Source: Proteromonas lacertae
Lineage: Eukaryota
Direction of reading: 5' to 3'
Length of the DNA stretch: 64,000 nt
Assembly: GCA_002245135.1 (NCBI GenBank)
Contig: NGBS01000294.1
Coordinates: 1 to 64,000, forward strand
How positions within the stretch are numbered: position 1 is the first letter of the stretch; every line of letters begins with the position of its first letter. Positions 25,101-61,600 of this stretch are shown piece after piece. A program made the position numbers and the translations under genes. Below the pieces are notes generated by a model. It saw nothing but the letters and a program-made list of their open reading frames with translations. It was not told where the DNA came from and ran no database searches.

Positions 25101-28044
25101 ACAACTCCATCACTCACTTTATGATCAGTTACATAACCATAATCTTCACGATGTAATTTCATAACATTAAATTCATTAAATGATGATTTTGATTCAACAA
25201 TGATTGGTTGTTGATCGCTATTCTTTTCATTTGTACTAGAATTTTCTAACAATTTCTTGTGTTTTTGTAAATGATCAACTTTATCTAAACTTTCTTTCCA
25301 AGCACCCATTCTGTAGATATGACTATGATCCCATACAACTGGTGATGGTAAATGAATTCTAGAATGTTCTGGAATTTCATAGAAATTTTCCCATTTGATT
25401 GTATTTACACCTAATGTATATAAACTAGCTAAAGATAATAAGATTTGTTCAACATCATTTTGTTTCTTTCTTAATGATGATACATATGGCATATCAGGTA
25501 ATTCTGTTAATATATAATTCCTTAAGATAGAATGTGCATCAATTTCTAAGATAATATCACATTTATCTTTCAACACTTCTAATCCTTGTTGGAAATGAAC
25601 AGATCCTCTTATATTCTTCCACCAATAATTTACATCCAATAAACCATCTTCTTGTTTAGCTAATGCTGCAGATATGAATGTAGTACCTTCTCTTATTGGA
25701 TTAACAGTAAAGTAAGAAGCTGAATTAAACACCAAATCTCTCATTGATTCACAATATCTGCTATGATAAGCATGATTGATTGGCAATAAAACGAAGTATA
25801 ATTTATTCTCTTCACAGTATTTTCCTATCTTTAATATTGCATCTTTATCACCACTGATGGTTATACTGTTTCTACTGTTGATACAAGCAACATCGACTAA
25901 TTCATCTAAATGTAAAGAGTTAATTAAGTTATGACCATCTGTTTCACTCATACCTAATGCAGCCATTGAGCCTAAAGCCATATTAGCTTGTCCTTTTGCT
26001 CTTTCGGATGATAATCGACATAAATCTCTAGTGGAAAAAGCACCAACAGCCCAAGCAGCAATCATTTCACCTGTAGAATGTCCTAGAACAACTGTTGGTT
26101 CAATACCGAAGGATCTATATAATTCAACTATAGCAATTTGTGACATTACAATACATGGCAAAGATACTTCAACTTTATTCATCATCAGTGGGTTTATTTC
26201 TTTGTCTGATTCAGTGAATAGTCCCACATCATGTAAGATTGATACACCGCTGAATTCCTTGAAATAAGAATCAGCTTCTTCACATGCATCTCTAAACACT
26301 TTGAAATATTTGTAACACATTTGACACATCTCTTTATATTGACTTCCTTGACCACCAAAAACAAAAGCAACTCTTGGTTTATCTTTATAACCAATATCAC
26401 CTTTAAATTGTTTTGATTTTGAGAAAAAGTCATTTGCTGCTGGCTCTGTAGTTGTAGCTGATGTTTTAATATCTTGTGCTGATAATAGTGTATTTGGGCC
26501 AACCAATACTTTTCTGAATCTTTGTGGATTATGTGTTAAAGCTTGAACAGCACAAGCTTCTGTAAATTCACTAGCAGAAACTGATTTATATTGTTCTTTC
26601 CATTGATCTAATGATAATTCAATACCATCTTTATAATGACTTGATATTGGTAAAATCAAAAACGGATAGTTTTTTGGATCAATATTGTTATTCTTCAATG
26701 ATAACTCTGGAGCTAAAACACAATGACCATTAGCACCACCAAAACCATAAGAACTTACACCAATTAAATTACTTTCATTTTCATTCAAAATTGGTTCATT
26801 TTTATCAACTATTTCCATATTGTATTTATTAGCATCTATCTTTGGATTTAACTTATCAAAACCAACTGTTTTTACATATTGCTGTTTGTACAACATTAAT
26901 ACACTTTTTATTATTCCACCCATTGCAGCTGCTGTCTCCATATGTCCTATATTCCCTTTTACACTTCCTACTTTTAGCTTATTATCTTTACTATGTTTAA
27001 TTCCAATAGTTTCACCTATACTTTTTGCTTCTAATGGATCTCCCACACTTGTACCTGTACCATGAGCTTCAACGTAAATAACATTTTCTTTTTTAAGATT
27101 ATTTCGTTCAAATACATCTTCAATTAATTTGGCTTGTTGAACATCGCTTGGCATTGTTAAACTTTTGGTTTTACCATCTTCATTTATACCACATCCTACT
27201 ATATTACCATATACTCTCTGAATTGGACTAATTGCATCTGGTTGTTGTAAGATAATTACTCCTACACCTTCACTTCTTACAAATCCATTGGCTTTTTCAT
27301 CGAATGGACGACTTGTACCTGTTGGTGATAACATCTTAGCTTGGGAAAAAGCAATAAATGGTGATACACCCATTAAACAGTTTACACCTACAACAATTGC
27401 TGTTTTACAGTCACCACTATCCAAGGAACGAATAGCCATGTGTAAAGCTGTCATTGCACTTGAACAAGCAGTATCTACTGAAAAACTTGGTCCTTTTAAA
27501 TCATAAAAATAAGAGACTCTGTTCGCAATGTTGCCTAGTGTATTACTTTCTAAGGAAAAAGAATTCATTTGCTCTGGGTAGTAGAATTGAAACGATAATG
27601 ATTCTACTGCTCCTGCGCCAACAAAAACGCCAGTATTGGATCCTTTTACATCAGATAGCTATTATATGATTAATTAACAAGTAAAGAATATACTTTTATT
27701 CTAGCATCACATAATGCTTCATATACCACCTCCAAAACCATTCGTTGTTGAGGATCCATAACATTGGCTTGCTTTGGTGCAACATTAAAAAATGAAATAT
27801 CAAATTTATCAACTCCTTCTAAAAAACCACCTTTAGAAGTGACACTTTTGCCTTCTTCTGTTGTTCCATTGGATGAATAGACTGATGCACTCCATCTATC
27901 TTTTGGAACTTCGGATATACAACAAGATCCTTCATTCAAGATCTTCCAGAAAGACTCTGTATCATTTCTAATATAGTATATAATCACTTATATATACGCA
28001 GAACCTGGGAATCTGCAACCTATTCCACTAATTGAGTATTTCAT
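19184..28044 (-). CDS. Type I iterative highly reducing polyketide synthase: KS-AT-DH-ER-KR-ACPx5-crotonase-like domain
   Basis: KS: GCRFPG, MDPQQR, DTACSS, HGTGT, NIGH. AT: GQGSQ, GHSTG, HAYHS. DH: DHKVSDGVVLPG and HPTVID. ER: HSAMGGVG. KR: GSTRGVG, YSAAN. Five GxDSL ACP motifs. Introns 27968..27997 and 27659..27693. Confidence 0.95.
19908..20857. repeat. Direct repeat of about 170 bp (19908..20077 and 20688..20857) encoding ACP5 and ACP3
   Basis: The two segments read identically by eye at an offset of 780 bp. Confidence 0.9.
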
Positions 28045-35866: not shown

Positions 35867-38800
35867 ATGAGATTATTTGCTTTATTGATATTGTTAAGTG
35901 TAATAAGTTCATTTGATGTAGGGTATTTTAAGAGAAATAGTGGAGATGAAAGATATATGAAAGTTATGGAATTATATGCTAAGAATGTCACAACAAATTC
36001 TTCGATAGAAATAAATATAGTGCCGTGTGATTATAGCACTCCAGGAAGGGAAAAAGTAGATAATTGTCTCAAGGAGTTGGTTGATAAGAAAATTACACTA
36101 ATATATGCTTATTGTGATAAGCACATATTAAGTACAGATGACAAATATTTAAATGATAATGATGTGCTAATTTGGTGTGTTAATACTTTCAATGTGGGTA
36201 TGTGTAAGAAACATCACATTATGGGAACTTCTCTAACCAACAGCATCAATATAAGTATATTTTATATAATATGGTTATCGTTTAGTTTCATTTATCATCA
36301 GTAATATTGGAGGATCTGCTGCATTTCTAGGTGGGAGTGACTCAGATGGAATAGATGAATTCTATCTACAAGATTTCGCTCCTGCACTAAAAGGGATGGG
36401 TTTAGCACTACTATTTAACACAACCACCACAACAGCTCAAGATATCACTGATTATATAGATGTCTTGAAGAAATACTATAATGATCATCCAGATGAAGCA
36501 ATCGTGACATTATCATCTATTAAAAATCCTACATTAATTCAACAGTTAGTAAATGGTATTAAAACAGCAGGAATTGATGCTGATCATCATACTTTATTTT
36601 ATCTTCAAAGTGGAATATTATCTACTGAAGTAGATACAATTGCAACTGGTGATGCTACATTTAAAGCTAATAATGAAGGAAATGTAGCGTTTAGAGCTTA
36701 TGATACAGTGATTGATAATGATGAATCGAGGTTTTATCAAGAAAAAATATATGATAGTTCAAATACAAAATCTGTGTCAATAGAAACATATCAGTATATA
36801 TTTATATATAATAATATATTTATAATAATTATAATAGTACTGGATTAATAAAATTACTGTTCTACGCTTTAAATTTAACAGTTGATGTAAATAATTTAAC
36901 AAATACCAGTCCATATACTTTACTCTCAATATTGAATGATGAAGTGATTAATTATGCAGGTGGAAATATATTGTTAGTACCAAACCATTATATTGTTACT
37001 ACTTACTATGGTTTTCAATATGTAACTGGCGGTGGTATTGAAACTGCGTTTGAAATCCCATATAGTTTGAGATTCGAGCCAAACTCAACATTTGGTGAAA
37101 TACAAACAGAAACTTGTAATTTTAAAATGAATGAAGATACAGGAATAAGTGCATTTGATACCATCAATGTGATATTAATACAGAATTTAACATCCTATCA
37201 TTGTTTCAATGAAAATGTGAATAGGAGAATGATTAATGCATTAGTAGATGAAGTGAATTTTCAAGGAGGAGTTTTAGGTAAACAATTACAATTCACATTT
37301 TATGAATTATCAAATGATAAAGATGTGTATTTACAAGCTGAAGAAATAGTTGAGATTTGTAATACGTCAAATATTCATACTATATTGTTATTATCCACTG
37401 TTGAAACAAGAGATGTAATATATAATACATTTGAAGAAGCATTTGACAATGAAGGTGATGATGATGATGATGTTTTTGACTATATGATATTTTATTATGG
37501 ACCAAATGAAGGTGAATTGTGTAAAGAGAAAATGATATTTGCAGGTGTGAGTCAATATAATTATGTTCAAACTGTAATGGATTATATATTAACTCAATCT
37601 TATGATTATATAATGATATTAGGTTCAGGTTATAAATATGGATTAGGAATGCAAAAAACTATAAAAGAACAGCTTTATACAAATGGATATAACTCAAGCC
37701 AAGTTGCTGTTTGGAATTTATTGAATGAAGATGATACACTAGACAATGTAAAACAAATTTTAACTACTAGAATTTTAGGCTTGAATAAGACAAACCTTCC
37801 TGTAATAGTAACAGCTGAAAAAGAGTTTCATTTTACATTATTTGAAGCAATGAAAGATTTAAAGATAGATGAAGAACATGGATATACAGTTTTTGTAATA
37901 ACTTTGGATATTATACAAGCACAATCAATTGGTTATAGTTATATAAATAACACAATTTATACAACACAATATTATACAGAAAATAAAGAATTTGTTAGTG
38001 ATGATCTATTCTTTTATGTACATAAGAAAATGATAAAAGAAGTTGGTACTTATATTCCAATATCTTCAGAAATGGTATTGTTATTTACAGTCTATCAACA
38101 GTGGAGAAGGTCTGTTGTTACAGCTGGAAATGAAAATCCAAAATTATATAGACAATTCCTATATCATCAAAAGACAGATGATCTTATATCTGGAACTTAT
38201 GAAATATATTATAATGGATATGGTCAAGCACCATTGTTTTTATTAAAAGTATATATTCTATTATTATAATTATTATAAAATAGCTACATGCTATTGATGA
38301 TTCTAATGCAACAATTGAAGTAGTGAGTAAAGATCCAATATCTAGAAGACCTTATACATATGTTAATCAAAAGAATAAAACATGTGATTGGAGATATCGT
38401 ATATAATAATAATAATATTTTATATATTTTTTTATATATAGCTGACAAGCCAATATTTGAAAGTTCAGTTTATAGAGTTGTTACATTGTTTTATTCAAAG
38501 AGTAAAGTAGGCGTAGAAGAATATAACAGTTTATTATTAATATTAGATTTAATCAATCAAGATGGTGGAATTAATGGTAAAGAATTGTTGTTAGAGTTTA
38601 CTAATTATGATGGAGATTATAAGAATATAGTTTCTGAAGCTGAAGGTGCTTTGAATAAATTTGGAGATAGTATTTTATGTTTTATTGGTGGAACTTCGTA
38701 TATATTTATTATCTATTTATATATATCCTTGTAGTAAAGAAGAATTTGATGCAGTAGATGATTTTCTAAAAGAACATGAATTATTATTGTTTTCAGTAGA

Positions 38801-41800
38801 TCCAGTTCCTGGTAATTTTGCCTATAGAAACATAATATTCGTATATAATAATTGTTTTTATTTTATTTGTGTTTAATAGATGAATTATGTATCAACTCAA
38901 TTTGTAGAATTTCAAATATATTGGTTATTAAGCAATTATGATAATTTCATGTTTATTGTTACTCCAAATATTACACCACTACTAAAAGCAGAATTAGAAT
39001 TTGTTCAAAGTTTATATCAATACTATAAGATCACTCCAATTAAAGAAACTATCTATTACAATGTTTCAACAATAAAATCAGTATTGAATGAAACAGTGTA
39101 TAGCTTAAATGATACAGCAGAAAAAGAGCCAGTAATGATTGTAACAGCATTAGATTCAGATACTATTGATTTCTTACAAGTGTATAATGATCTAAATATC
39201 GATCAAACAAGATTCCCTGTAGTTATATCTGATTATTCACAAGATATGTATAGTGAAGATAATCAACATTTATGGAAAGGACATTTTGCTTCTAAATTAT
39301 ATGATCAAAAAACAACTTATAAAGAAAATACACTTTTAAAAGATACAATTAATACATATAAAGGATCTGCTGAGACTAATATAAACCAGAGGTTTATACT
39401 TATGTATGATATATTCCAATTCTTTGCCTATGCAATTCCAAATGCAGAAAATGAAACTACAATAGCAGTAAAACAGAAAATGTACAATGCACAATTAGAT
39501 TTACCAGATGGACCAAAATCATTATATGCTACAAATTATGCGACAAGTCATTCGTTAGTATTTCATTTTGGTGATACAAAAGATGATGATGAGATAGTAA
39601 TGGATTTGTTTTATCCACTTGGTCAATTCCCATATCATTTCTTAGTATAATTTTTTTTAATCGTTTTATAAAAATAGACTAACCAAAAACAATATTATGT
39701 ATCTGATTTTAGTTATGGACAAGATATAGAGAAAACTGGAGCAAAGTATTATGGAATTGCTTTTTTATTTGAATTGAAAGATAGAAATCAACAAGGTTAT
39801 TCAGATTACTTATTTGTTAAGAGTAATATTGAATATGCAAATTATTATGGAGGTATAAAAGGAAAAAGAATTGTATATTTTATATCATTATATTATATTA
39901 TATCAAAATAGTATTCAGAATTATATCAATGTCCAGAAACAGTCGCAGAAGGTGCAGATCTTGTCTTTGATCTATATGAAAGAGGTTTTAATATAATCAT
40001 TGGTGGATGTGATGTAAGAAGAAGAGATTTAATAGTTGATAGGTTATTGCCATTAGAAATGATAATGTTTTATTTAGGTCCAGATACTGGAAATCATTGT
40101 AAAGAGAATGTATTTTATATGAATATGCATTTTACACAAGGAATTCAACCTGCATTATTGCATTTCTTATATACACAAAATGAAGATTTTGGATTTATTT
40201 ATTCATTAAAATCAAAGTTTGAAAGTGTTATTACATTTATCAATACTATGTTAGATGCTTGGAATGTTAAACCATCCTATTCAAAAGGTGTAAATAATGA
40301 AAATCGTAATGAAGAGCAAATATTAGAAAACTTCAAAATGGAAATGAGTAGGTTACATGAGAATTTAACAAATGGTGGAAATATCTTAGCAATTTTTGAA
40401 GATAGAGATTCAGAATTGTTCTTTGAATCACTATATGATTATGTGAAGAATTTGTATGGTGTAGATGCTGAAATTCAAGATTATTTCACTGTCTATATGA
40501 TTGATTTTTCACATACAACATTCAGAGAAAGACCAGAAACAGCAGAAGGTCATTATATTTACACTCCATTTGCATTTGATGATAGTAATATGAATATAGT
40601 AAACTACGAAAATAATTGGGATAAAGTAACGAATAAAAAACAATCTAGATATGTTGATGTATTAGCTGGAGTAACAACACAGTTTATATTACAAATCTTT
40701 CAAGATTCTAAATCTGATGATTATGAAGTGATGAGACAACAGATATATACAACTACATTAGATACAGCTATAGGAACATTGAGATTTGATGCTGAAAATA
40801 GATGTTATCAGAGTTTCTATATAGCCAAAGTAAATAAGAAAGGAGAAGTGTATGTCGAAAAGACAATAAGTACAGAATTTCCAGCTGAAACTTATCATGT
40901 TAATTTCAATAGATTATTCTTCGCAGTTTGTGATTGGAGAGATGCTAAGAAAGAAGTTATTAAAAGAGATATGATTAGATTTGGCTTGATATTACCAAAT
41001 AGTAAAGCAAACAGAGAAAGTGGAATTGAATTCTATCAAGGACTTTATACTGCAGTGAATAATTTCAATTTAAATGGAGGTATAGATGGTAAATATATTT
41101 TATTGAATATTGTTGGTGATAATAATGATCCAGACTATGCTGCATTACAAATGGAAAAGATGTATAATGAAACGAATATATTTATATTCTTTGGTGGTTG
41201 GACTAGTGAAATAAGAAAGAGTTTACATGAAGTTGCAGTTAAATATAATTGTCTGTTATTTTTCCCATCTAATTATGAAGGAGAAGAATGTTATTATAAT
41301 GGATTCTATGCTGGAATGCCTTATTCTAGTTATTATGCTATTGTGCCTCAGATCATGAGTAATAGTAACGGATATATTATTTTATTATATGGAACAGCTG
41401 TAAGAAGTGTCTATTTTGCTGAACATTTAAAAGAAGACTTAGAATATTTCAATATAGAATTGAATATGTTTACACAAATACCACCAGATATAACAGATTT
41501 AAAATATGCAGTAGAAAATATCAAGAAAATATGTCCAAAAGGAGCAATTATTATTTCATTGTTAGATGGATCAACTCGAATGAATTTATTATCAGAATTA
41601 TACAATGCTGATGCTAGACCACCATTGTTTGTTGTATATAATATTAATTTGGATGATACAATGGTGAGTGAATCAACATCTATAATAAACGATCAATATA
41701 TTTACGATTCATTTGTACATGATGATAGTAATGAAGATTTGACGAAATATGATAAGCTATTTAAGAATTTATTTACATTCATAAAAACTGCCAATTATTT

Positions 41801-44800
41801 AATTGCAAGAGGTATTGCATTAGGTGAAATATTATTTAAAACTTTTGAATTAACACTGACTAGAGATAATGGAAATTTCACTTATGATAATTTAAGAAAG
41901 AATATTTATGATGTTGAAACTAATACTGTCTTGGGGACTTTGGTATTTGGTGAAAATAATAATTTAAAGAATATTTTATCACTAGAAAGAGCAGAAATTG
42001 ATGAAAATGGAGAATTTGACAGTGTTGCTGTTTATCAAACTAAAATACCAATAACAAATCGTCCTTTTGGTAATATAATCCGAACAGAAACTATAAAGAG
42101 ATGTAATTTAAGGTACAGTGATACAAAAGAAGAAATAAATTACAAAAGAATTGCTTTGTTATTCTCAACAACAGGAACTATGAAAACAACTCATGCAAGA
42201 GCTATTTATAGTGCTTTAACAGCCTTAAGAGAGTTATACGATGAAGATTTGATTAATGGTGAAGTATTATTATTGAAATTAGTGAATTTTGATTCGGATG
42301 AGGCAAAATTAGAGGAAGAAATGAAAAAACTAAGAGATGATAATTCAATTGTCGCATATGTTGGTTGTACAGGTGCTGAATGTCGTTCAACTGCACAAAG
42401 TGAAGCAGAGTTAACAGGAAGATTGTTCTTTTATCCAAGATCCTCTACAGGTGAACAATGCAGCTACTATACATTCACTACATCAATTGTTCCAAATCAA
42501 TATGTGACTAGATTGATGGAATATTTAATCACCACTGATTATAATTCCTTTATTTATATAATTGGTCAAAATAGACCAACAATTATTAATTTAATGGATA
42601 TAATTGATGATGCAGCAAAGGGATTATTTACACCTCAAGGTAGATATTTAGTAGATGAAAATAATCCTATTTCTAGTTCACTAGTAAATAGTATAATCCA
42701 AGAGAAAATAAGTGAAGGTGGAATAATTTTAACTGTATTTACCACTGTAAATTATTTAGTTCAATTTTTACAATATGTTTATCGAGCTCATATAGATTAT
42801 AATAAAATAGCAATTGTTGATTGTATTACTGAAGTAGAAGATACAGACATAATACCATCAAATTATAAAGACAATTTATATAAGTTTTCTAGATATATGT
42901 ATGATGTAGATACTGAAGATAATAAGAATTTTAAAGATAAACTGTTCTTATATACAGGTGAAACTTATACCACAAGTTTAGCTGAAAGTACCTATGCTTC
43001 AATCAAATTATATGCAAAAGCAGCTAGAGATGCAAAGACATTCAATTCAACAATAGTAAAGTCAAAAGTTTACGGTAATTCAATTACTAGTGGTAGTGGT
43101 AAAGTGACTGTAGATGCATCTGGTTATGTAACATCTCCATTCTTTGTTTCAAAGTATTCTGCTAGTACAAATACATGGAGTACAGTGTATTCGAAGTATG
43201 ATACACAAACACCACAACCTTGGAGTTGGAATTTAAAATCATCTTATGGATATATGTGTAGTTTTGCTGATGGTATAATTAAAGATAAATATCAAGTACC
43301 TGTACAACGTACTGTATTAATAGCAAGTTTAACTGGTGATTTAAGTATCAATACAAAAGGATTAGTGGATGTATATCAAATGACAATTAATAAGATTAAT
43401 GACAATAATGGAGGTGTTGGTGGTTATACATTAAAAGCTGATGTTTATGATATTCAATCAAATACTGAATATTGTAAAGCAAATGTAGGAAACTATATAA
43501 AAGAGAATCAACCCTTAGTTGTATTTGCACAATTAACAGCTGAATGTTATAATTATGTAAAAGATAGTTTTGATACTATCTTATTCTTTGAATTGAATGA
43601 AAAAGAACAGAATTTCTGCAAAGAGAATGTGATGGTTTCTGTACAACATCCAACCTTCTTAGATAATATAATTGAAGTAATTAGAAGTAGATTCTATCGT
43701 GCAGTAATGATAATAGTTGATGTAGAGAATAATCAATACAATATAAATGCTGAATATATGATGAATTATATGAAGAAATACTATATTCCCTTTGGTAATT
43801 ATACATATTCATCAACTAGAGATGGAAGAAATACAAGAGAATTGTTGAATGTATTTAACACTATTTATTATGGATTATATATAAATTCAACAATTAATAA
43901 TGAAGCTAGCAATGATCAAGGATTAATTATCCATTTTGGTCCAGCAGATAGTTTTAAATTTTTAGTTGAAACTCTTCAAAGTTCAAGTGAATTATCGAAT
44001 AGTAAACATAAATTATTAGTGATGGAACATCAACATTTAATTCGTACTTTTGATTTGAATGGATTGAAAGAGTATGAAGCTTTAGAATTCTATGATTCTG
44101 ATTCAAGTGATGAATTAAATGTAAATTTCAAAAATGAAATATATCAAAGAATCCAACAAGGAACATTTGTATCTGATTTGATGATTCGTACTTACAGTTC
44201 AATCAATTTATGGTCAGAAGCAATACAAAGTTTACCAAAGAATATGATTGTTAATGATAATAAAGTAGCTGATGTATCATTGAAGAATGTAAGAGATGCA
44301 ATAATCAAAATACAATTCAATTCACCAGAAGGTTTGGTTTATTTTGCTAAAAATCAGTATTTATCTAGGATTCCTAAGTTATTTAAATATACACACAATG
44401 AAACTTCTAAATCATATATTAGAACATTAAGTTATTTTGCTTTAAATGCGATAGAACCAGAAGCTTATTCAATGCCATCTTCTTCTCAATATCGATTATG
44501 TGATTTTACTGATGATAATATATTGAATGATGGAACAGTAAGTGCTTATCAAATAGCAGTAATCTTGTCATTGACTGGCAAGAATAAAAAGAAAGAAATT
44601 CCAATCTTTGAAGCAGTTAGAACTGCAATTAAATTGATAAATAAAGAAACTGGTTATTTAATCAATAGATATATTTCGATGGATTTATTTGATGCTAAAT
44701 CTAGTGATGATAATTACCTCAGTATAACATCAGATATAATACAAGATAAACTGAACAATAATCAATATGCTTATGTATTTGCTGGTTATTTCCCAGAAAC

Positions 44801-47800
44801 ATTCGATCAATTAGCTCCATTATTTACAGAAACAACAAAATTGCTATTCTTCTTAGGAAAACCATTAGGAATGAAATGTTATTCAGATGCAATAGCAATC
44901 CATCCACACCCTTCAATGATAGTCCAATCTACAATAAGAAGACTATTAGAATTAAGTTCAAGTGCTTATTTAATCCATTCTGATGATACATATTGTAATA
45001 GAATCGCTGATTTAATGACTTTGACTATGCAAAGATTAATTATTACAGCAAATGGTAATATAATCTATAATAAGAATAGTAATCGATTATTAAATGATAT
45101 TGAAAGAGCTTTGCCGAATGGAGGATATATCATATTTGTAAGTGATATAGAAGATGATATATATGATTTCTATAAGAAGATATGTAGTTCAAAAGTAATA
45201 AAACCACCAAGTTATACAATAATCAATGTATTATTAGATGAGAATATGGTAGTAAATATCATTAGTCAAAACAGTGTAAGTTGTTTGAATGGTCATATTA
45301 TAATGGGAAGTTATTTTGAATCATTGAGTTCAAGTAACACAAATCTATTAGATACAATTCCATCCAATTCTGAGATGTTTAATATGAATTATCACATTAA
45401 TTGTGGTTCTTTATTCCCATCTACTGATATAGAATCTGCATTTGCTACTGTTGAACTATGGAAATACTTTATAAAGAAGAATAATGTATTTGGTAAAGCA
45501 GAAGGAAGTGCTGATATATATCATTATTTTATCACATTACCATCTGGTGAAAGTGATATAAGTGTAAGTAATTTTTGTAGTAGAAAGATCTACAGTGGAA
45601 CATTCAATGAAAATAGTCAAATAATCGTTAATTGGGGACCTACAGTCACATTTAAGCCTAGTGTATATAGTGAATACAATACCAGTGAAATTGGTTTAGT
45701 ATGTGATTTCAGTGATAAAAACAAAGGTGCAAGATATGATGAAAATCCAATAATTATCTCATTTATCCATGAAAAAGATTTAGGAGGAAGAACTGAAAGA
45801 TATAATGCATTAATTCAAAATATGATCATCAATAATATGAATGATTTAGGAGGAATATTAGGTAGGAAATTAGCAGCTAATCATACTTGGGTAACTATCA
45901 GTGATGCTTATAGAAATATAAGAGATATAGTTGAAGTAGGAAGATCGAAATTTTTATTTGGATGTATTACTTCTGAATGTAGAACTGAAGTAAATAGATA
46001 TTTATCGAATCATATGGATTATTTGTACTTCTTTACAGGCAGAGATGATGGAATTCAATGTAGTAATAATGTAATAACAACAGGTTTAGGAATGACAGCT
46101 AAAATTGTTACATTTGTAGAATATATTAAGACAATGCAATTGGAATATTTATATATTATAGGACCAGATAGAAATTCAAGTTATACTGAGATATATATAA
46201 TAGAAAAAGCTTTGAAATTAACATCAATGAAATTATTAGATTATAAACTCTTCTCTGCTTTCAATACAATTGATGTAGCAACTGCCATAAAAGCAATAGA
46301 AGATGAATTAAATGATGTTGATAGAATAGCAGTAGTGAATCTCTTTGTCGCTTATGAGAATAATCAATTAACACCAACATTTGTAGCTAGTACAAAATGG
46401 ACTTCAATGATTATGTTCTATATGAAATATGATCCATTAGATATTGATTCAAAGTATCGTGTTTCAATCAGTGGAAGTTATGTAATTACCTCTTATTCAA
46501 GTGTAATATCCAACACAGCGTCAGGTGCATTTCAATACTTGACAAAGAGTGAATATCAGAATGCAATTGAGTTGAATGAAATCATTGAAAGTAGTTATAG
46601 TTCAGTAAATATATTAAAATTAGCAATGGAATATTCAGCAGATTATGATAGAGAAAATGCATTACCAGGTAGTGATTATGTAAAATTGAGTTTAAAGTAT
46701 GTAAATTATGATAGTCCTTCAGGTATATTTTCAATCAAAGATAATAATCATGCAAATAAGAATATCTATATATTGAGATTATCAAGTGATAATGAAATTC
46801 AAGTCTTTCCATCTCAAGGAATGGAATATTCAATGGATAATAATATGACATATATCGATGATAAAGAAAATTGTGAATTTGCCAAGAAAATGGAAGTTTA
46901 TGATGTAGATAAAACAATGGAATATATAGTAATTGGATTTACATTATTGAATGTAATATTATGCCTTCTATTCGGTTTAATTGTATATGTCTATCGACAT
47001 AGCCGAATAATCAAAAGTGCCAGTCCTTTGTTCTTATTCTATACTTTATTATCTTTAGTAATATTGAGTTGCTGTGGTAATATTTTTACTCAATTACCAA
47101 CAGAAGAATATATCTGTGAATTACGTATTTGGTGTTTAAGTTTATCAATTGATTTTGTGTTTAGTATAATGTTTTGTAAAGCTTGGAGAATTCATCGTTT
47201 ATTTAATAATAAAGAATTACAGAGAGTGAAAGTGTCTAATACAATGTTATTGAAGATGATTGGAATGATATTAATAGTTCAAATCATTTATTTATTGTTA
47301 TGGACATTTATTGAACCATCCGAACCTAGTTTGAGATTTTCCTCAGGATTTTCAACCTATTTAAGTGATATATATCTACAAGAATGTAGTTCAAGTATTC
47401 CCTTTGTAGTAATTCAATTATTTGTGATAGTAATAATCTTTATATGGGGTGGAAAACTAGCTTGGGGAGTGAGAAAAGCTTCAGCTGAATTTAATGAATC
47501 AATGTCATTAATGTCAACCATTGGTTTAATGTTAATAATGGGTATAATATTAGTTCCATTAGATTATTTAATGGCTGATGATCCTGATACATTGGTGTTA
47601 TTGAGAAGTTTAGGAATTGAGATTGGTGTATTTGGAATAATCTTATTACAATTCTCATCAAAAGTGATTTATGTTTGGAAAGTAGAAATGAGTACAACAT
47701 TTGGATCTTCATCGTTAGGAAGTAGTGGAAATAGTAGTGGAAGTCGGTATATATATATATTTATATATTATGTATTAAAATAGAGCTAAAAGTCAAGCTT

Positions 47801-48003
47801 TAAAACGAGCTGCAGCAAGAGGAAGATTTACACTTCATCCAAAGATATTGAATTATTGTGCTATTTCCATTGCTACAATCTCTGAATCTGATAGATTTTT
47901 CGAAGAGAAGTTGAATCTTCATAGTTCAATTCGTGTTCATAACAGCAGTAGTATATCAAGACAAAATACTTCTAAAATATCAGCTCAAGATCCAGTTTTA
48001 TAG
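35867..48003 (+). CDS. Giant class C GPCR-like receptor: signal peptide, nine tandem type 1 periplasmic-binding (UrtA/AmiC-like) domains, GABA-B-like 7TM domain (about 3,900 aa)
   Basis: Signal MRLFALLILLSVISS. Nine repeats of about 390 aa, most with N..GG(V/I)xG. 7TM motifs IKSASP.F, C..R.W, K.WR..R.F, FNES. About nine short introns join the ORFs in frame; stop TAG at 48001-48003. Confidence 0.88.
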
Positions 48004-49289: not shown

Positions 49290-52200
49290 ATGGGTTGTGG
49301 AAGTAGTAAAGCTAAATTAGTTCCAATGAAAATGGAATGTAGTTTCAAAGATTTACAATCTGATATAATCGCTCCAATCTCAATCCCTCCTCCTCAAATG
49401 AAATCTCGAAGCCAGAGTGTATCATCTGTTGCTTCTTCATTTTGTTTCGTTGATCCTAAAATCCCTGATCATCCTGGTCAGTTAGTGATTGGTGAAAGTG
49501 GAACAAAAGAGATTCGAGGTTCAGTATACTACTCTATGAAATAATGCATATAATAGGAAGCTAATTTCACAATTGAATTCGCTTGTTTAAGTCTAACTGG
49601 ATATTATCCTGAAGTATACTATTTATATAGTTTATTTATTTATTAATTATAGCAATTGGACAAACATAATCAAGATAGTTATATCTGTTTAGCAGATTAT
49701 GATGAAATTAGTGATACAAATGGAAAAGATATAAATCTGGGTTTATTTGGAGTATTTGATGGTCATGGAATATATGGTGATAAATGTAGTCAATTTGCTA
49801 GTCATATATTTCCAAAGAAAATCAAACATAATCCTTCCTACAAATCAGATTTTCTTCGAGCTTATAAAGAAGCATTTATTGGAACAAATGAGAGTTTACA
49901 CAAACGAAAAGACATGAAAGGTGATAAAAATATCGATGATTCCTTTTCAGGAACAACAGCCATTTGTTTGATGTTATATGGAAGTGAAGCTTATATAGGT
50001 AATGTAGGTGATTCTCGAGCAATAGCTGGTGTAAAGAGTGAAAATGGCAAAGTAGAAGCTGTTTTATTATCTGTTGATCAAACTCCCTATAGAAACGTAT
50101 ATATATATATTCTATTTTTTATTATTATTAGGATGAATTATTACGTGTACAATTAGCAGGAGCTCAAATCTTATCTTTAGAAGAAAAAAAAAATGATCAA
50201 TCAAAAAGTACAGTGAATTGGGCCAAAGTAGTTGAAGGAAATGGAGATCCACCTCGTTTATGGGTAAAAGATGAGAATTATCCAGGAGTATGTTTTACTC
50301 GAAGTATTGGAGATTGTGAAGGTGAAAAGATAGGTGTAGTTGCAGTTCCTGAGATTCAAATACATACAATCACAGCTGATGATGAATATATAGTAATCTG
50401 TAGTGATGGAGTATTTGAATTCTTAACAAGTCAACAAGTAATTGATATTACATCCTCTAGTAAAACAGTAATGGAAGCTTGTCAAAAGTTATTAGTGGAA
50501 AGTCATAATTTATGGCTTACTAATGATGTAAGAACTGATGATATAACTGCATTGGTAATAAAAATATCAAACTATAATCAAACAGGTGAAATATCTAGTC
50601 GATCTCGACATGAGAGTGAATTAAGTCAAAACTTAAGGCCAGTCAGAGGAACACTCTATTCTTCAGTACAAAATGATAATAATAATAAAAATGGAATGGG
50701 TCCTGTACAGCCATTAACAATTGAAGAACAAAATTATCAATTACCAACAGTATATACAGGTTTACCAAGTCAAAAGAATGATATAAAAGAAGCAATCAAA
50801 TCGCAATATATATTTCGATATTTAGATGATGATACATTGAATGGTTTAGTGAATAGTGTAGTTGTGATTAATGTAATGGCGAATGAAACAATTATTAAAC
50901 AAGGAGAAAGAGGTGATCACTTTTATATTGCATTTAGTGGTGAATATTCTGTTTATATAAAAAGTAAGAAAATTCCTACAACAACAACAACAACAACAAC
51001 TCCAACAAATAATAATGAATTAATAAATAGTGATAATGATTTAAGTCATAAAATATCACCCACAAGTCCAAAAGATTCTAGTGAAAATACAACTCCAGCT
51101 CCAATAATGGAATCTCAAACTCCTAAAAATGTCGCTATTTGTGTACATAACTACAATGCTGATCATGGCGTATATCCATCCTTTGGTGAATTGGCATTAT
51201 TATATGATTCTCCAAGAATGGCAACTATTATTGCAGATTCAATGGGAGTGTTATTTGTTATTAATAGAACAGCGTTTCGATATGTTGTGTTGAATAATAA
51301 TTATAATAAAACACTTCATGTTTTAAGATCAGTGAAATTATTTCATTGTCTTACATCAATTCAGTTGAGAGATTTGTCCAAATGTTTGAATGAAATAAGT
51401 TATAAAGATGGTGAATATATAACGAAACAAGGTGAAAAATGTGAAAATTTCTATATAATTAGTCAAGGAGAAGTGAGAATAACTAAAAATATGAAAAATG
51501 GAATAGTAAAAGAAATGGAAATTACAAGAGTTAGCCAATATGGATATTTTGGTGAGCTTGGCTTGATTGAGAATATAGTAAATAAATTCAATACAGTAGC
51601 AAATGGTGAAGTGAAATTATTGAAATTAACAAAAGAAGCATTTGAAAAAGTGTTAGGATCTATGCAAGATTTATTAATTGTAGATAAAAAGAAACAAGAT
51701 GAACAAATAAGAAAACAACAAATATGGATGGATTTCAAATCTGCTAATAATATTTTAACAGTCAAAAATACAGATTTTGAATATAATTTATATAATAAAA
51801 CTTGTACTACACAATTAAGTGATTATTATATTGTGAAACATAAAGAAAGTGGTAAAGAGTTTACGTTGAGAATAATGAAAATTGGAACAATTGATGAAAA
51901 GAATTTACAAAATAGGATAATTCGTGAAAAATCAATTCTAAGTCAATATTTTATACTTAATTTAGATGAAAATCCTTTCTTTATTTGTACATTAAAATCA
52001 GTAAAATATGTGAATGTATTTTATAATTCATTAATCGTAGATGTTGTTGATAGTTTAATAATTAAAGAAAAACCAGTTTCATCTCAAATAGTCAAGTATA
52101 TAATGAGTAGTTTAGTATTATATTTTGAGAAATTTCATAACATTGATCTACTATTTAGAGGTGTAAACCCATCGTTATTGTGTTTAGATAAAGATGGAAG

Positions 52201-52732
52201 ATTGATAATAAACGAATATGTTAATTCAAAGATATGTAATGGAAGATCTTTTACTATTTGTGTTGAGAATGTATATATGTCTCCAAGAATGGTTTTAGGA
52301 CAAGGACATGATTATAGAAGTGATTTGTGGAGTTTAGGAATATTTTTATATGAATTATTAACCTTAAAGACACCATTTAATAGAAAGAATAATGAAAGTG
52401 ATTTAGGAATATTTCATAACATATTAAAGCATGAAAAAGATTTGAAGAAGGTGGATGGTATAAATGATAAGGAAATGAGTTTAATTAATAAATTTTTGAA
52501 GAGAAATCCTTCTGAAAGGATTGGAGCAGGTAGTGATGGTATTAAGAATTTGAAAAACGATAAGTACTTTGAAGATGTTGATTTTGATAAATTAATGAAT
52601 GGCAGTTTAGAATCACCTTTGAAAGATTATTGTAATAAGTTGTATGAAAAATGTATAGGAGGAGGGAAAACTGATGATATGCTTGAAATGAATGATTATG
52701 AAGGAAATAGTCCTTGGGTTGTACAATTTTAG
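49290..52732 (+). CDS. PP2C phosphatase, two cyclic-nucleotide-binding domains and an AGC-like pseudokinase; N-acylation signal
   Basis: MGCGSS; VFDGHG, NVGDSR, TRSIGD, SDGVFE, DDIT; FGELAL and FGELGL; DLWSLG. Three short introns. Confidence 0.92.
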
Positions 52733-53962: not shown

Positions 53963-56573
53963 TTATAAGAATGATAATTTCTCAGTACTTCTTTGTCCAG
54001 TTGCAGAAAACAATCTATTGGAACTTCTATTATATTCATGAACTAATAAATCAGAAGGAGGCATTTTATCTTCTTTGTATAATGGTTTAATCCCTTCTAA
54101 TCTTTCTCTTTTAATCTCTTGATACTCAGGAATATCTTCAAATAACTTTGACAAATCTTCATCTTCTTTCTTCATCACCATAGCTGAAGTAGATGGTCTA
54201 AAATTGATTGGAGGAAGCGGAACTGTTCTTGTATAAGCAGATGTTGGCTTTGAGAAATGTTCTAGAATATTCTCATCTTCTTCAATTGTTTCTATGGATG
54301 TAAATGGAACAAATCTTTTCCCATCATATTCTCCTTTTGGTGGAACTCCCATATAAACATCTATTTTAATAATAATAATAATAATATATAAATTATACCT
54401 GGTGGTAATTTCACTACTGGTTTTATTTCTATTGGGATTTCATGATCTAAATTATAATCTGATAAATCTGCTTTTATATTATCATGTTTCTCCAACATTT
54501 TCGTTAATTCCAATTCTCTTTGTTTATACTCTTCTGCTCTCCATGACAAGTTACTTTCAGCTGATTTATCTCTCTTTCTTGTGCTTAAAACACCATGAAA
54601 CATTGAACATTTATAACTAAATAATAATATAAATTATATTATATAAATTATACGTTCCAAATGGATGTGGATCTGATAATCTATCAAAAGTGTTTGATGC
54701 TTTTTTCTTTTCTTTTAATCTTTGATTATCAAACTTTTCTCTTACATCTAAACGTTTTAATACATCATTGATTGGAGTTGGATCATCCATCTAAATATAA
54801 TATAATAAATAAATAAGAAATATACAATTGTTTCATCAACACTAAACTGAAATATAGTTGGTTCTCTATGTAATGCCTTTCTCACCCACTTCTCAGCCAT
54901 TTTCTTCAAATTAGCTTGAAACAACAAGCTTTTTGCTTCATCGTTTTTCTTCCACCAACGTAAAGATGTATTAATATGTACTAACCATTTACAACCATAA
55001 TTAGGACCCATTAATAAATCTTTATCTAAATAAGGAGGTGATCCTAAAACAGAATAACCGAGAGTTCCTTGTAATTTTGAATCAAAATGCCATAATCGTG
55101 AAGTACCATCTAATGAACTTGACATAATACAATTTGCACATTCAATCTATTGAAAAATAATAACAGTGAAAAAATATACCCAAGTTAAGTTTGTAATAGT
55201 GGTAACATGTGCTTTCCATGTATAAGTTGGCATTAGATTAATCGTTCCTCCATTTGGTCCACATTTACTATAACTAGATTCATCTGCATTTCTAAAATCT
55301 TGAAAATCGATTTCCACTTTCTCTCTTCTTCCTCTATCTCCTACTTCATTTGTTTTACGAGGAGGCATATAAGGAATACCAAATGACTTGAAGAATGATG
55401 ATGTTAAATTCCATGCTTTTATATATCCCTGTTCATCTCCAGTATATAACATGATTGTGGGTGGTTTAATATAGTCTGAATGAACAATGTGTATTGTAGC
55501 TGCGGTTATGGAACATTTCATATCGTGATCTAATTCATCTTTAACTACATTGGGGAAGGAGAATAAATGTCTATAAAATAATAATATTAATAACAAACAA
55601 TAATATATATATATATATATACTTTGAATTATCACTATAAGGCGGAGTTTGATATAAATCAACATCTCCATAAGTATTAGCAACCATTACAACAGGATAT
55701 GGATCTAAAATACATAAACAAGTACAATCTATTGAATTAAACTCATCCATCAATTTAAAGTCCATATTTCGATGATCTTTCTTATATTTATCTTTTGGAT
55801 CTTTATAAGGTGGTTTGACTAGTCTATAAATGATTTTAAATGTTTCATAATTAATAACATATATTCTATCACTATTATTCAATCTATAAGAAACAATTAA
55901 AATATTAAAGTTCTTTGAAAAATCCATAAAATTTATAGACAATGAATAAGCAGATGAGTTATAATTAACTACCAATTCTCTCAATATTGATGATTGAAAT
56001 GGTAATCGACTATAACCATCCGTTGTATCATCATATATTCTCAAACTACCATCCCAACTTGAACATATTACAGCCATATTCTCTACACAATATTTCAATG
56101 AAGAGATATGAGAAGTTGCTGGATCAAACTCTTTACAATAATTACCATTTGAAATAGTGTAAACTCTTACTAATCCATTAGTAAAACCAATATAACATCT
56201 CTTGTGGATTGGATCAATATCCATTGCAGTGATTTCAGCTTCAACATGTGTTGGTGGATTGGTTTGTAAATATAAATCTTTCTTTGTGGAATATCTACAT
56301 TTTATTTTACCATTTCTACCATAGTAGAGAGTTAAGAAATCATTGGAAGCAACAATGAAGTTTAATGCAGCACCATCGAAACAGGCAGCTACCACTTGTG
56401 AACATGGTAATGGAATATCTCTTAAAGCATAAGATGAAAATTGAGTTCCATAAGTTACTATATTCATAATAATAATAATTATAAATATATATATACAGAC
56501 ATAACCTTTATCTTCATCCACTAAAGATCCACAACATATAAATGCAGTATGTGGAGAAGATATATGAAATTCC

Positions 56574-58325: not shown

Positions 58326-58669
58326 TTGAGATTGTGTAAGTTTTGGTTTTCGTGGAGGTAAGCCTATTGATTCGAATATTATATAGTATACTTCTTGACA
58401 ATATATATGAAGATGATTTACTGAATCTACTCTTTCTCATTTATGAATAAATTGATTTTAAAAATAAAACGATTGTTTGATTTATCTCAAGCTTTTTGAT
58501 TTTTTCAATTTCTTTATATATTACCTCACACGAAGCTATTAATTCATAAATAAAAAAATAATGACTGTTATTTCGTTTAACAATATCTAAACTATCAAAA
58601 TCTTATTCTAAATTTTACTAGTATAGGGCTTAATAATACAAACATTTGTCAAGTCTAACGTTCACAAAA

Positions 58670-61600
58670 ATGTTTGTTTTCTTTTTATTTGTATGTGGAA
58701 TCCTAACAGAAACTACAAATAAAAAATTCTGTCCAAACAACTGCAGCCATCATGGTACTTGTAATTCAAATGGTGTATGTGAATGTTATAGAAGTGGTAC
58801 AAGTGATGATTCTTATCCAATGTATGGTGGAGCTGATTGTTCAATAAGTAAAATATTATTATTTTAATTTTTATTTAGAATTATGTCCAAGTGGTAGAGT
58901 ATTGTTTGCATCTTTAACAACTACTTCTATACAGAATACTGTAGGGAATGCAAATTCTGGTAGTCCATATCCAACTGGAACTGGTGCTGGGGAAGATTAT
59001 CTCAGAAGACTATCTCCTAAAACTGATGGATATGCTCCACATCAGACTCAAGCATGCGCATTTGATTTAGCATCATCTGGATGGATTATAGAACCATATA
59101 CTCCAGATACTCTAAGATTAGGTGAAATTGGTGGTGTAGTAGATTGCAAAAGAGTTACATATCATTTAGTAGATAATAAAGATCCTGGTGGTAAAGACTC
59201 TGAAAAAAATACAACAGAGATGCTTTATAACTTAAACTATTATATTGAACAAGATAGATATTTAATCATAGAATATGAAAATGGAACTGCGCCAATGTTA
59301 CTACATGGACAATATTTAGAATGTACAAAAGTCTCAAAAACCTTTAATGATTTTGCTAAAAGAATTACAGTAGTATTTGATGATGAAACAGGAAAAGCTG
59401 TTTTGAAAGAGAAATACCATCATTTATTATCATATCAAAAGTTCATTGATACTCAGTATTCCTTTGGCTGTATAATGGATGATACAAAAGAAGTGAAAGT
59501 ATTATCAGCTACAAGTAAAGGATTTAATACAGAATGTTATGAAGGAAATAGATGTATAAAGAATTGTGAAGCAAATCAAATAGCAATATGTAATAACAAT
59601 AAAACTTGTGAATGCGTTTCTAATTTCTGTGTAGATAAAGATGGATATAGTTGTAGTAAAACCTGTCCAAGTGGACAAAGTGCAATATGTTTAGGAAATG
59701 AATGTGTATGTAGAGATAATTATAGAACTTGTTATAATGGTGATAATTGTAATGATATGGATTGTGGTAATAAATATGCTCCTTTTTGTAAATTTGGTAT
59801 ATGTCAATGTATTGTTAAGAAATGTACAAGTGAAGAATTTGATTTACAAAGTTGTTTAGCTTATTGTGAGAATGGTAAACCTGGTGTATGTCATAATCAA
59901 GAATGTATGTGTGAAGAGAATAGATGTGTTGCTGGGACCTTATTTGATGATAGTCATGTTAATGAGATAAATGGTAATGTAACATGTGGTGAAAGTGAAG
60001 ATAAAGTATGTGTATCTGGTAGATGGCAATGTGTTCAAGATCCTTGTACTAACTCTACTGCAGGATCATTATGTATTGATTTTTGTGGTAATGAGACTAG
60101 TAGAGGTATTTGTACAAATACCACAAATGGAATGAAATGTGAATGTTTTAATATTACTGAAGAAAATGAATATTGTGTAAATGGAGAAGACTGTTTATTT
60201 GGAATTGGAAGTTCAAATGAAACATATCGAGGAATCTGTAAGTTAGGAAAATGTGAGATAGTAGAAAATATCTGTAAGTCCTTGAATGGAAGTAATACTG
60301 ATGGTCGATTATGTATGAATCACTGTTTTAGTGAAAATAATAATACAATGGATGGAATTTGTATGAATGAGACATGTATATGTGTAGATGATCCTCCTTG
60401 TTTAAGTGGTGATTCTTGTAATTGTGATAGTAATGGTTCGAATATGACTGGTATTTGTTTCGAAGGTAAATGTGAATGTTTTGCTGATAATTGTTTTGAT
60501 AAACGAGATGGTGAGATTTGTTTGAATGAATGTTTAAACAACAAAACAGGAATGTGTTTAAATGGTAAATGTTACTGTGACCAAAGTGAATGTGAGATAG
60601 GTAAGCCATGTAATAAAGAATGTGATACTGAAAGTGAAGAAAGTGAATGTGTTGATGGAAAATGTCGATGTATTCAGAAAGTATGTAATAGTAGTGTAAT
60701 AGGTGAATTATGTTTAAGTGATTGTGGTAATTCGAGTAGTCGTGGTATTTGTCGAAATAATACAGAATCAAATACGATATTATGTGAATGTTTTAATATA
60801 TCTGATGACAATTCTGATTGTGTGAATGGTGAAAGTTGTACATTTGGAATTGGATTATCAAACGAAACATATCGTGGAATTTGTAAGAAAGGAGAATGTG
60901 TGATGGTAGAAAATATCTGTAATAAGAATGACAATAATACTTATCATCGAAGTTGTATGAATAACTGTAATGATGGAAGTGGAAATATGGTATATGGTCA
61001 TTGTGATGAAGAAGGTGTTTGTATTTGTGATCTAAAATTGAATGTAAGTTCAAGTGATAATAACAAATGTATGGATGCAACTGATTGTAATATGTGTGAT
61101 AATTCAACTAGTGATAGTTTATGTATTTATAACGAATGTTATTGTGTTCCCAAATACTGTAATAACCATACAATAGGTCAAAGTTGTTTAGGAAACTGTA
61201 GCAACGATCATCCTGGAATTTGTAATGCTAATAATGAATGTGAATGTAAAATAGATCGTTGTAATCCAGGAAATGTTACTAATGATTGTAATAGTCATGT
61301 TTGTAAATCTGATACCGAAATTGTGAAATGTATAATTGATGAATGTCGATGTATTCAAAAAGTATGTACAAATGATAAAATAGGTGAATTATGTTTATCA
61401 AAATGTGGTGATGAAAATAGTCGTGGAATTTGTTCTAATAATACAAATGGTAAAATCGAATGTAAATGTTATAATAAAAGTGAAGAAAATGAATATTGTG
61501 TAAATGGAGAAGATTGTTTATTTGGAATTGGAAGTTCAAATGAAACATATCGAGGAATCTGTAAGTTAGGAAAATGTGAGATAGTAGAAAATATCTGTAA

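What the first reader, a model, noticed from the sequence alone, without database searches (positions are those of the whole stretch)
35867..48003. Class C GPCR carrying nine tandem bacterial urea/amide-sensor-type binding domains
Seen: a signal peptide, nine repeats of about 390 aa (starting near 35910, 37160, 38470, 39750, 40970, 42150, 43310, 44550 and 45750), then a GABA-B-like 7TM domain (about 46920-47690) and a cytoplasmic tail. Known: animal class C GPCRs carry a single Venus-flytrap domain. These repeats instead match the bacterial UrtA/FmdD/AmiC binding-protein pattern, best in repeat 5 (NLNGGIDG...FGGWTSEIRK...LLFFPSNYEGEEC...FYAG) and repeat 6 (STTGTM...LFFYP...PNQ). Inference: a bacterial solute-binding module was recruited and amplified into a long multi-ligand antenna on a eukaryotic GPCR, perhaps sensing urea, amides or amino acids. 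The repeats are highly diverged, so the amplification is old and specificities may differ.
Basis: partly seen in the sequence, partly recalled or inferred. Interest (0 to 1): 0.9.

Follow-up and report, generated by a model that had tools for sequence, protein, structure and literature searches.

The report
GPCR with nine bacterial urea-binder modules
A single protist gene joins a glutamate/GABA-type membrane receptor to a chain of nine modules most like a cyanobacterial urea-binding protein; relatives with such chains occur in distant eukaryotes, and this copy, whose modules have lost most urea-gripping residues, likely senses other small molecules.

Summary
Observation confirmed. 35867-48003 (+) is one 10-exon gene for a 3,932-aa protein: hydrophobic N-terminus, nine ~390-aa repeats, class C 7TM, tail. 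A relative (P0002) is one unbroken ORF with the same layout, gap-free at 8 of 9 splice points. The repeats are UrtA-type by profile (UrtA E 4e-48, AmiC 6e-22, animal flytrap 0.57) and by predicted fold (Z 44.4 vs 33.9 for mGlu8). With their relatives they group inside cyanobacterial UrtA in trees, though an AU test could not reject a link to ANF domains. The architecture is a family: 22 of 151 other proteins examined have two or more repeats plus a 7TM, including Capsaspora CAOG_05347 and an unnamed protein whose repeats are up to 55% identical to cyanobacterial UrtA with intact urea pockets. The window's repeats keep only 0-2 of 5 essential urea residues, so urea is unlikely here. Bacterial-type binding domains on protist class C receptors are known; tandem UrtA arrays were not found in ten literature searches. 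Ligand, expression and G-protein coupling are untested. New variant of a known kind.

The parts
35867..48003 (+). Whole gene, 10 exons: 35867-36254, 36286-36793, 36838-38248, 38284-38398, 38442-38697, 38735-38840, 38880-39644, 39678-39872, 39912-47746, 47784-48003; 3,932 aa
   Evidence: splice points checked against unbroken relatives
35867..35929 (+). Predicted signal peptide (hydrophobic aa 3-21)
   Evidence: hydropathy; similar N-termini in P0002, P0003
35909..37150 (+). R1, most degenerate repeat (two introns)
   Evidence: pooled-profile match; no Pfam hit on its exon ORFs
37151..38461 (+). R2, UrtA-type repeat
   Evidence: Peripla_BP_5 E 2e-12, TIGR03407 E 7e-12
38462..39740 (+). R3, UrtA-type repeat; has lost both conserved cysteines
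   Evidence: Peripla_BP_5 E 3e-10 on its longest exon
39741..40964 (+). R4, UrtA-type repeat
   Evidence: leave-one-out 68.7 bits; weak Pfam hits
40965..42140 (+). R5, closest to a urea pocket (keeps W120, S122, E146 equivalents; 2 of 5 essential residues)
42141..43301 (+). R6, highest overall UrtA similarity
   Evidence: TIGR03407 E 2e-25, Peripla_BP_5 E 2e-34
43302..44540 (+). R7, UrtA-type repeat
44541..45740 (+). R8, UrtA-type repeat; pocket positions 8 of 9 identical in P0002 and P0004, 4 of 9 in P0003
45741..46907 (+). R9, membrane-proximal repeat, 16 residues from its last cysteine to TM1, no cysteine-rich domain
   Evidence: AlphaFold2 model pLDDT 92.5, Z 44.4 to UrtA
46908..47689 (+). 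Class C seven-helix domain (7tm_3), GABA-B-like
47690..48003 (+). Cytoplasmic Ser-rich tail (intron 47747-47783) with a segment conserved in P0001 and P0002

Best explanation
[quoted passage not shown] Shown: gene structure, nine homologous repeats, UrtA-like sequence, class C 7TM, loss of most urea residues, position-by-position conservation of the array in relatives. Predicted: UrtA fold of R9; a disulfide in each module between the two conserved cysteines. Inferred: a solute closes one or more modules; R9 (and R8), which sit directly on the 7TM without a cysteine-rich domain, as in GABA-B, pass the change to the helices; the distal modules, with different pocket residues, broaden or tune the input; the 7TM then activates a G protein, probably as a dimer. 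The ancestor was likely a urea sensor, as slow-evolving relatives (P0007, P0024) keep complete urea pockets.
For: One ORF of 3,886 aa with the same layout (P0002) and gap-free alignment at 8 of 9 splice points, one linker gap at the ninth. Seven-repeat profile against PDB: UrtA E 4e-48 to 3e-43, AmiC 6e-22, LIV-type 2e-7 or weaker, taste-receptor flytrap 0.57. R9+7TM model built without bacterial rows: pLDDT 92.5, pTM 0.83; best matches three cyanobacterial UrtAs (Z 44.2-44.4, rmsd 2.2 over 369), AmiC 42.0, mGlu8 flytrap 33.9. Trees: 17 of 17 eukaryote repeats form one group (98/99; 96/99 under a mixture model) inside cyanobacterial UrtA (100/99; 99/99); a clade of all bacterial UrtA without them is rejected, p-AU 0.015. 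Cysteine pair present in 12 of 12 cyanobacterial UrtA, 1 of 14 other bacterial rows, 8 of 9 window repeats, 60 of 70 other eukaryote repeats; R3 lost both. P0007 keeps all 8 conserved urea residues in 5 of 8 full repeats, P0024 in 1 of 2. 7TM aligns with GABA-B2 through TM3 and TM6.
Against: No ligand, transcript or G-protein evidence. The AU test does not reject window repeats + ANF flytraps as a clade (p 0.237); window branches are very long and compositionally odd. Pocket positions overall are no better conserved than the rest of the repeats (39 of 81 vs 0.42, p 0.15; 23 of 72 vs 0.38; 16 of 34 vs 0.42), as expected if several modules bind nothing. The monomer model places R9 differently on the 7TM than GABA-B does (rmsd about 26 A over the whole chain). 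Cyanobacterial rows were picked as best hits of a P0007 repeat, and only 4 other UrtAs were sampled, so the donor is provisional.
Confidence: 0.55

Rival explanations
1. Only the one or two membrane-proximal modules sense a ligand; the distal repeats are a non-binding stalk or adhesion rod that lifts the tip beyond the cell coat or contacts bacteria or host surfaces.
For: Pocket conservation stands out only in R8 (8 of 9 with P0002 and P0004) and R9 (7 of 9, 6 of 9), and falls to background in R1, R3, R6, R7; identity to P0002 rises from about 30% distally to about 50% proximally; 30 N-glycosylation sequons in the ectodomain.
Against: In P0007 and P0024 the pattern is reversed: distal repeats keep the urea pocket and the proximal one is the most degenerate (95 vs 217-509 bits; 53 vs 527). 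The R8/R9 excess is a post hoc pick from 21 comparisons and fails with P0003 (4 of 9).
Confidence: 0.27
2. The array is a surface nutrient trap or a G-protein-independent partner subunit; the 7TM acts as anchor or allosteric partner.
For: UrtA is a transport-binding protein; TM7 lacks the proline of the class C xPKxY motif (motif recalled; sequence); no genome was available to look for G proteins.
Against: The 7TM is the best conserved part (69% to P0002 against 30-53% for repeats), with TM3/TM6 features shared with GABA-B2 and a conserved tail segment.
Confidence: 0.1
3. The repeats are ordinary eukaryotic Venus-flytrap (ANF) domains that diverged, not a separate bacterial acquisition.
For: AU test does not reject it (p 0.237); weak ANF hits in P0002 and P0014; an ANF-bearing receptor (P0039) sits among UrtA-type receptors in the 7TM tree.
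Against: Profile, fold and cysteine-pair evidence above; P0007 repeats are 45-55% identical to cyanobacterial UrtA with full urea pockets.
Confidence: 0.04
4. Several neighbouring genes or an assembly artefact were read as one.
For: No transcript was examined.
Against: R4(part)-R9 and the 7TM lie in one 2,623-codon ORF; P0002 is one unbroken ORF with all parts, and P0003 with R1-R9; repeats are only 9-21% alike, so not a collapsed or duplicated assembly.
Confidence: 0.02

Closest known systems
GABA-B receptor (class C GPCR, ANF flytrap joined directly to 7tm_3)
   Same: Best solved relative of the 7TM (E 3e-13); bilobed type I binding domain joined to TM1 without a cysteine-rich domain; top Foldseek hits of the R9+7TM model.
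   Different: Nine modules instead of one; UrtA-type instead of ANF-type; different placement of the proximal module in the monomer model (rmsd about 26 A).
Non-animal class C receptors with bacterial-type binding domains (BMP, OpuAC, SBP_bac_1, LysR_substrate, PBP_like_2 in PMC3251606; a 'Peripla_BP//7tm_3' row in the supplement of PMC3971589; BMP-type Grl receptors of Dictyostelium in PMC10445921)
   Same: Same design: periplasmic-binding-protein domain on a 7tm_3; some are shown sensors (GrlL for folate, as stated in PMC10445921).
   Different: The passages seen name no UrtA-type domain and no tandem array; the Peripla_BP row gives no copy number in the text held.
UrtA, urea-binding protein of ABC transporters (TIGR03407; PDB 8HIC, 7S6E, 7S6F), and its relative AmiC (1PEA)
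   Same: Best sequence and fold match of the repeats; cysteine pair and C-terminal extension shared with cyanobacterial UrtA.
   Different: 15-21% identity (13% for R1); 45-90 bits where matched against a cut-off of 493; urea residues mostly lost; fused in tandem to a eukaryotic receptor.
Capsaspora owczarzaki CAOG_05347 (P0023), annotated only as hypothetical / family 3 GPCR
   Same: Three UrtA-type repeats before a 7tm_3.
   Different: Three, not nine; its 7TM is not resolved as sister to the window's group.

Membership tests
Class C (glutamate) GPCR | 7tm_3 domain above Pfam cut-off with seven helices | tested here: met
   131 bits vs cut-off 33.5; seven long helices in the model
Class C (glutamate) GPCR | Large extracellular bilobed ligand-binding domain N-terminal to the 7TM | tested here: met
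   R9 model matches type I binding proteins, Z 44; extracellular location inferred from hydropathy
Class C (glutamate) GPCR | Conserved TM3-ECL2 cysteines and TM3 lysine / TM6 acidic residue (motifs recalled) | tested here: met
   C459, K480, C549 invariant or nearly so in alignment A3; aligned with GABA-B2
Class C (glutamate) GPCR | Constitutive dimer | not testable with these tools
   needs biochemistry
Class C (glutamate) GPCR | Couples to heterotrimeric G protein | not testable with these tools
   no host genome, no assay
Animal GABA-B / mGlu type ectodomain | Single ANF_receptor domain | tested here: not met
   nine repeats; ANF_receptor only E 0.16 in R5 and absent in the other six repeats scanned
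UrtA urea-binding protein (TIGR03407) | Score above the family cut-off (492.75 bits) per domain | tested here: not met
   45-90 bits in 6 of 8 repeat stretches scanned, no hit in 2 partial ones
UrtA urea-binding protein (TIGR03407) | Urea residues W120, S122, Q144, Y190, N246 (PMC10392092) | tested here: not met
   0-2 of 5 in each of nine repeats; columns for Y190 and N246 uncertain at about 20% identity
UrtA/AmiC clade (Peripla_BP_5), as descent | Best profile, fold and tree placement with UrtA/AmiC | tested here: met
   caveat AU p 0.237
Single-origin UrtA-GPCR subfamily | All UrtA-type receptors form one 7TM clade | tested here: inconclusive
   FastTree split 0.987 with 24 UrtA-type + 5 others vs 99, but 33/89 and Capsaspora unresolved in the careful tree of 42 rows

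The most novel reading that the evidence does not exclude
An undescribed subfamily of class C GPCRs arose when a cyanobacterial urea-binding protein was captured once and strung in tandem; it now spans distant eukaryotes (Capsaspora and this low-GC protist lineage). Its conservative members (P0007, P0024) are urea-sensing GPCRs, and the window's nine-module receptor is a multi-ligand antenna that integrates several solutes through one 7TM.
Probability: 0.35. Interest if true: 0.87.

Novelty: new variant of a known kind. Interest (0 to 1): 0.72.

Why it matters
Class C receptors are understood as one flytrap per chain. A conserved chain of nine poses a direct mechanistic question: how can binding several modules away reach the helices? 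The family also offers an unusually traceable case of a bacterial binding protein becoming a GPCR ectodomain (55% identity still visible in P0007), a candidate urea-sensing GPCR that can be tested at once, and an entry to how little-studied protists sense their chemical surroundings. Modular solute-binding arrays on a 7TM could be useful for biosensor design.

Tried and rejected
No whole genome is held, so no paralogue count or G-protein search; within the window no second copy of the repeat or 7TM was found. No RNA holder listed. Metagenome contig scan: 25 pattern matches, none a relative. Word-based search with the 7-repeat alignment: 0 of 5,811 candidates passed. Single-sequence fold of R6 was unusable (pLDDT 34.9). 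Self-BLAST of the whole protein printed no off-diagonal hits; repeats were tested by profile instead. R9 homodimer prediction: no answer. R1 was not folded or looked up in the Atlas, so its fold rests on profile comparison. Atlas look-up of R8-R9-7TM returned only ANF/7tm_3-type clusters and no structure search. The 63-row careful mixture tree did not finish; its quick tree is cited as such, and a 36-row set was used for the careful trees (left out: P0002, P0014, several long-branch repeats and 6 bacterial rows). The idea that the host is a human-type Blastocystis was not supported: a TGTTTGTT motif (recalled) lies 105 nt after this gene's stop but exactly after none of 9 other approximate gene ends checked, GC is about 27% and introns are 31-44 nt; the organism stays unidentified. 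A neighbouring PP2C-cNMP-kinase fusion resembles haptophyte, plant and oomycete clusters, a weak lead that it is not an opisthokont. Four look-ups of earlier scan findings gave nothing relevant. Literature searches returned 0 papers; others listed none whose title or abstract start describes tandem UrtA-type GPCRs. Unseen supplements may bear on novelty: supplementary file 12 and figure 3C of PMC12716839, file 1 and the figure itself of PMC3971589.
Full report
Gene. The window is AT-rich eukaryotic DNA (GC about 22-33%). Between 35867 and 48003 on the + strand, nine GT-AG introns of 31-44 nt join ten exons into an open frame of 3,932 aa; exon 9 alone carries most of R4, R5-R9 and the 7TM in one ORF. 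A search with that ORF found 4 relatives among 5,932 candidates. P0002 is a single unbroken ORF of 3,886 aa that aligns part for part: N-terminal hydrophobic stretch, R1-R9 at 30-53% identity, 7TM 69%, tail 49%. The spliced model aligns to it without gaps at 8 of 9 junctions, with a one-residue gap in a linker at the other. One polypeptide is therefore well supported, although no transcript was seen.

Repeats. R2-R9 are mutually homologous by leave-one-out profiles (52-92 bits, best shuffle 4-11). R1 fails that test but matches a pooled profile over 314 columns (probability 96.7), and Pfam counts nine Peripla_BP_5 stretches in P0002. Identity among repeats is 9-21%. In the quick tree each window repeat pairs with the same-position repeat of P0002, and five pair further with P0014, so the array is older than these sequences' split.

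What the repeats are. R5 and R6 each hit UrtA structures first, then AmiC. A profile of seven repeats ranks UrtA (E 4e-48 to 3e-43), AmiC (6e-22), LIV-type proteins (2e-7 or weaker) and a taste-receptor flytrap (0.57). An AlphaFold2 model of R9+7TM from 52 eukaryote-type rows is confident (pLDDT 92.5, pTM 0.83); among Foldseek's 1,000 top chains its best matches are cyanobacterial UrtAs (Z 44.2-44.4, rmsd 2.2 A, 369 residues), ahead of AmiC (42.0) and mGlu8 (33.9). Whole-chain matches to GABA-B have rmsd about 26 A: same two domain types, different placement in this monomer model. Two cysteines, one after the 'EG.EC' loop and one near the end of each module, are in 12 of 12 cyanobacterial UrtAs, 1 of 14 other bacterial rows, 8 of 9 window repeats and 60 of 70 other eukaryote repeats; R3 lost both, which fits a disulfide (inference). 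Linkers from that cysteine to the next module or TM1 are 14-17 residues.

Family. A HMMER search of 1.84 billion representatives with R8-R9-7TM gave 3,555 proteins at E up to 0.001, of which the best 150 were listed. Of these plus P0002 (151 proteins), 43 carry UrtA-type repeats after dropping one ANF protein (P0129); 32 have two or more, 24 five or more, and 22 have two or more plus a 7TM. Many begin at internal methionines, so counts are lower bounds. Of 30 clusters looked up, most are unnamed assembly proteins. One is Capsaspora owczarzaki CAOG_05347, with three repeats. P0007 (unnamed, not AT-biased, N-terminally cut) has at least nine repeats scoring 2,996 bits in all against TIGR03407; one of them found 587 relatives in the 21 of 64 parts of the genome collection scanned, and 78 of the best 80 are titled as cyanobacteria, at 52-57% identity; 3 of 3 checked pass the UrtA cut-off.

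Origin. In a 36-row set, 17 eukaryote repeats form one group inside cyanobacterial UrtA, away from ANF and LIV rows, under LG+G4 (98/99; 100/99) and a mixture model (96/99; 99/99). A clade of bacterial UrtA alone is rejected (p-AU 0.015), but window repeats + ANF is not (p 0.237); the window's branches are very long. The cyanobacterial rows were chosen by similarity and only four other UrtAs were included, so the donor is provisional. For the 7TM, FastTree separated 24 UrtA-type receptors plus 5 others from 99 (0.987), but a careful tree of 42 rows supports only the AT-rich group (10 rows, 99/99), leaves Capsaspora unresolved and places an ANF receptor among the rest. A single capture of the module is favoured; a single fusion is not shown.

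Ligand. PMC10392092 (passages read) shows W120, S122, Q144, Y190 and N246 to be essential for urea binding. By alignment, window repeats keep 0, 1, 0, 0, 2, 0, 0, 0, 1 of these five; P0007 keeps all eight conserved residues in 5 of 8 full repeats and P0024 in 1 of 2; Capsaspora keeps at most 3 of 8. Urea is thus likely for those relatives and unlikely here. Pocket positions are not conserved above background overall (39 of 81 vs 0.42, p 0.15 with P0002; also not with P0003 or P0004), though R8 and R9 stand out with P0002 and P0004. In P0007 and P0024 the proximal repeat is the least UrtA-like, which suggests a transducer role for it (inference).

Mechanism. Most likely a class C sensor: solute binding closes one or more modules, the proximal module moves the 7TM as the flytrap does in GABA-B, and a G protein is activated (all inferred from established class C biology; 0.55). 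Rivals: distal repeats as a non-binding stalk (0.27), nutrient trap or G-protein-independent partner (0.10), diverged ANF domains (0.04), several genes (0.02).

Literature. PMC3251606 (passages) reports BMP, OpuAC, SBP_bac_1, LysR_substrate and PBP_like_2 domains on non-animal class C receptors, with N-termini up to 1,667 residues, which matches where the 7TM of CAOG_05347 begins, so that protein may have been in the set unrecognised (inference). PMC3971589 (passages and 2 of 3 supplements) lists a 'Peripla_BP//7tm_3' architecture without copy number in the text held. PMC12716839 (passages, section 9, one supplement), PMC10445921 (passages, section 10) and PMC12965686 (passages; a GPI-anchored single flytrap of Entamoeba) describe no UrtA-type or tandem array in what was seen. 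PMC12129017 (passages) and PMC5608401 (term search) have no occurrence of GPCR. Ten searches found no description; the library lacks most subscription papers.

Verdict. A real, intact-looking, conserved gene; a new variant of a known kind. The surprise lies in the nine-module array, the traceable UrtA origin and the wider unnamed family with predicted urea sensors. Interest 0.72.

Noticed in passing
window 19184-27658 (-): Type I polyketide/fatty-acid synthase ORF of 2,824 codons (KS, AT, DH, ER, KR) ending in five tandem acyl-carrier domains; two of them share an identical 170-bp stretch.
   Followed up: no
window 49290-52732 (+): PP2C phosphatase fused to three cyclic-nucleotide-binding domains and a kinase, directly downstream of the receptor; nearest Atlas clusters are haptophyte, plant and oomycete. 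No evidence of a functional link.
   Followed up: partly
window 58637-64000 (+): Cysteine-rich (14% Cys) open frame of at least 1,699 codons running off the window, built of about 1,320-bp tandem units 96-98% identical, after a signal-peptide-like and EGF-like start; no Pfam family above cut-off. Looks like a young repetitive surface protein.
   Followed up: partly
P0007 and P0024 (unnamed records): Class C receptors whose repeats keep complete urea pockets and up to 55-59% identity to cyanobacterial UrtA: the best candidates for urea-sensing GPCRs.
   Followed up: partly
P0038, P0040, P0047, P0049, P0053, P0054: Class C 7TM receptors with leucine-rich repeats, some also a PA domain, in the ectodomain; a separate well-supported 7TM clade holds those included.
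   Followed up: no
window 358-35465 and 53963-56572: Ordinary neighbours: PI3/PI4 kinase, HECT E3 ligase, aldo-keto reductase, Tubby, NIPA transporter, kinesin, Cid1-type nucleotidyltransferase, WD40 protein.
   Followed up: no
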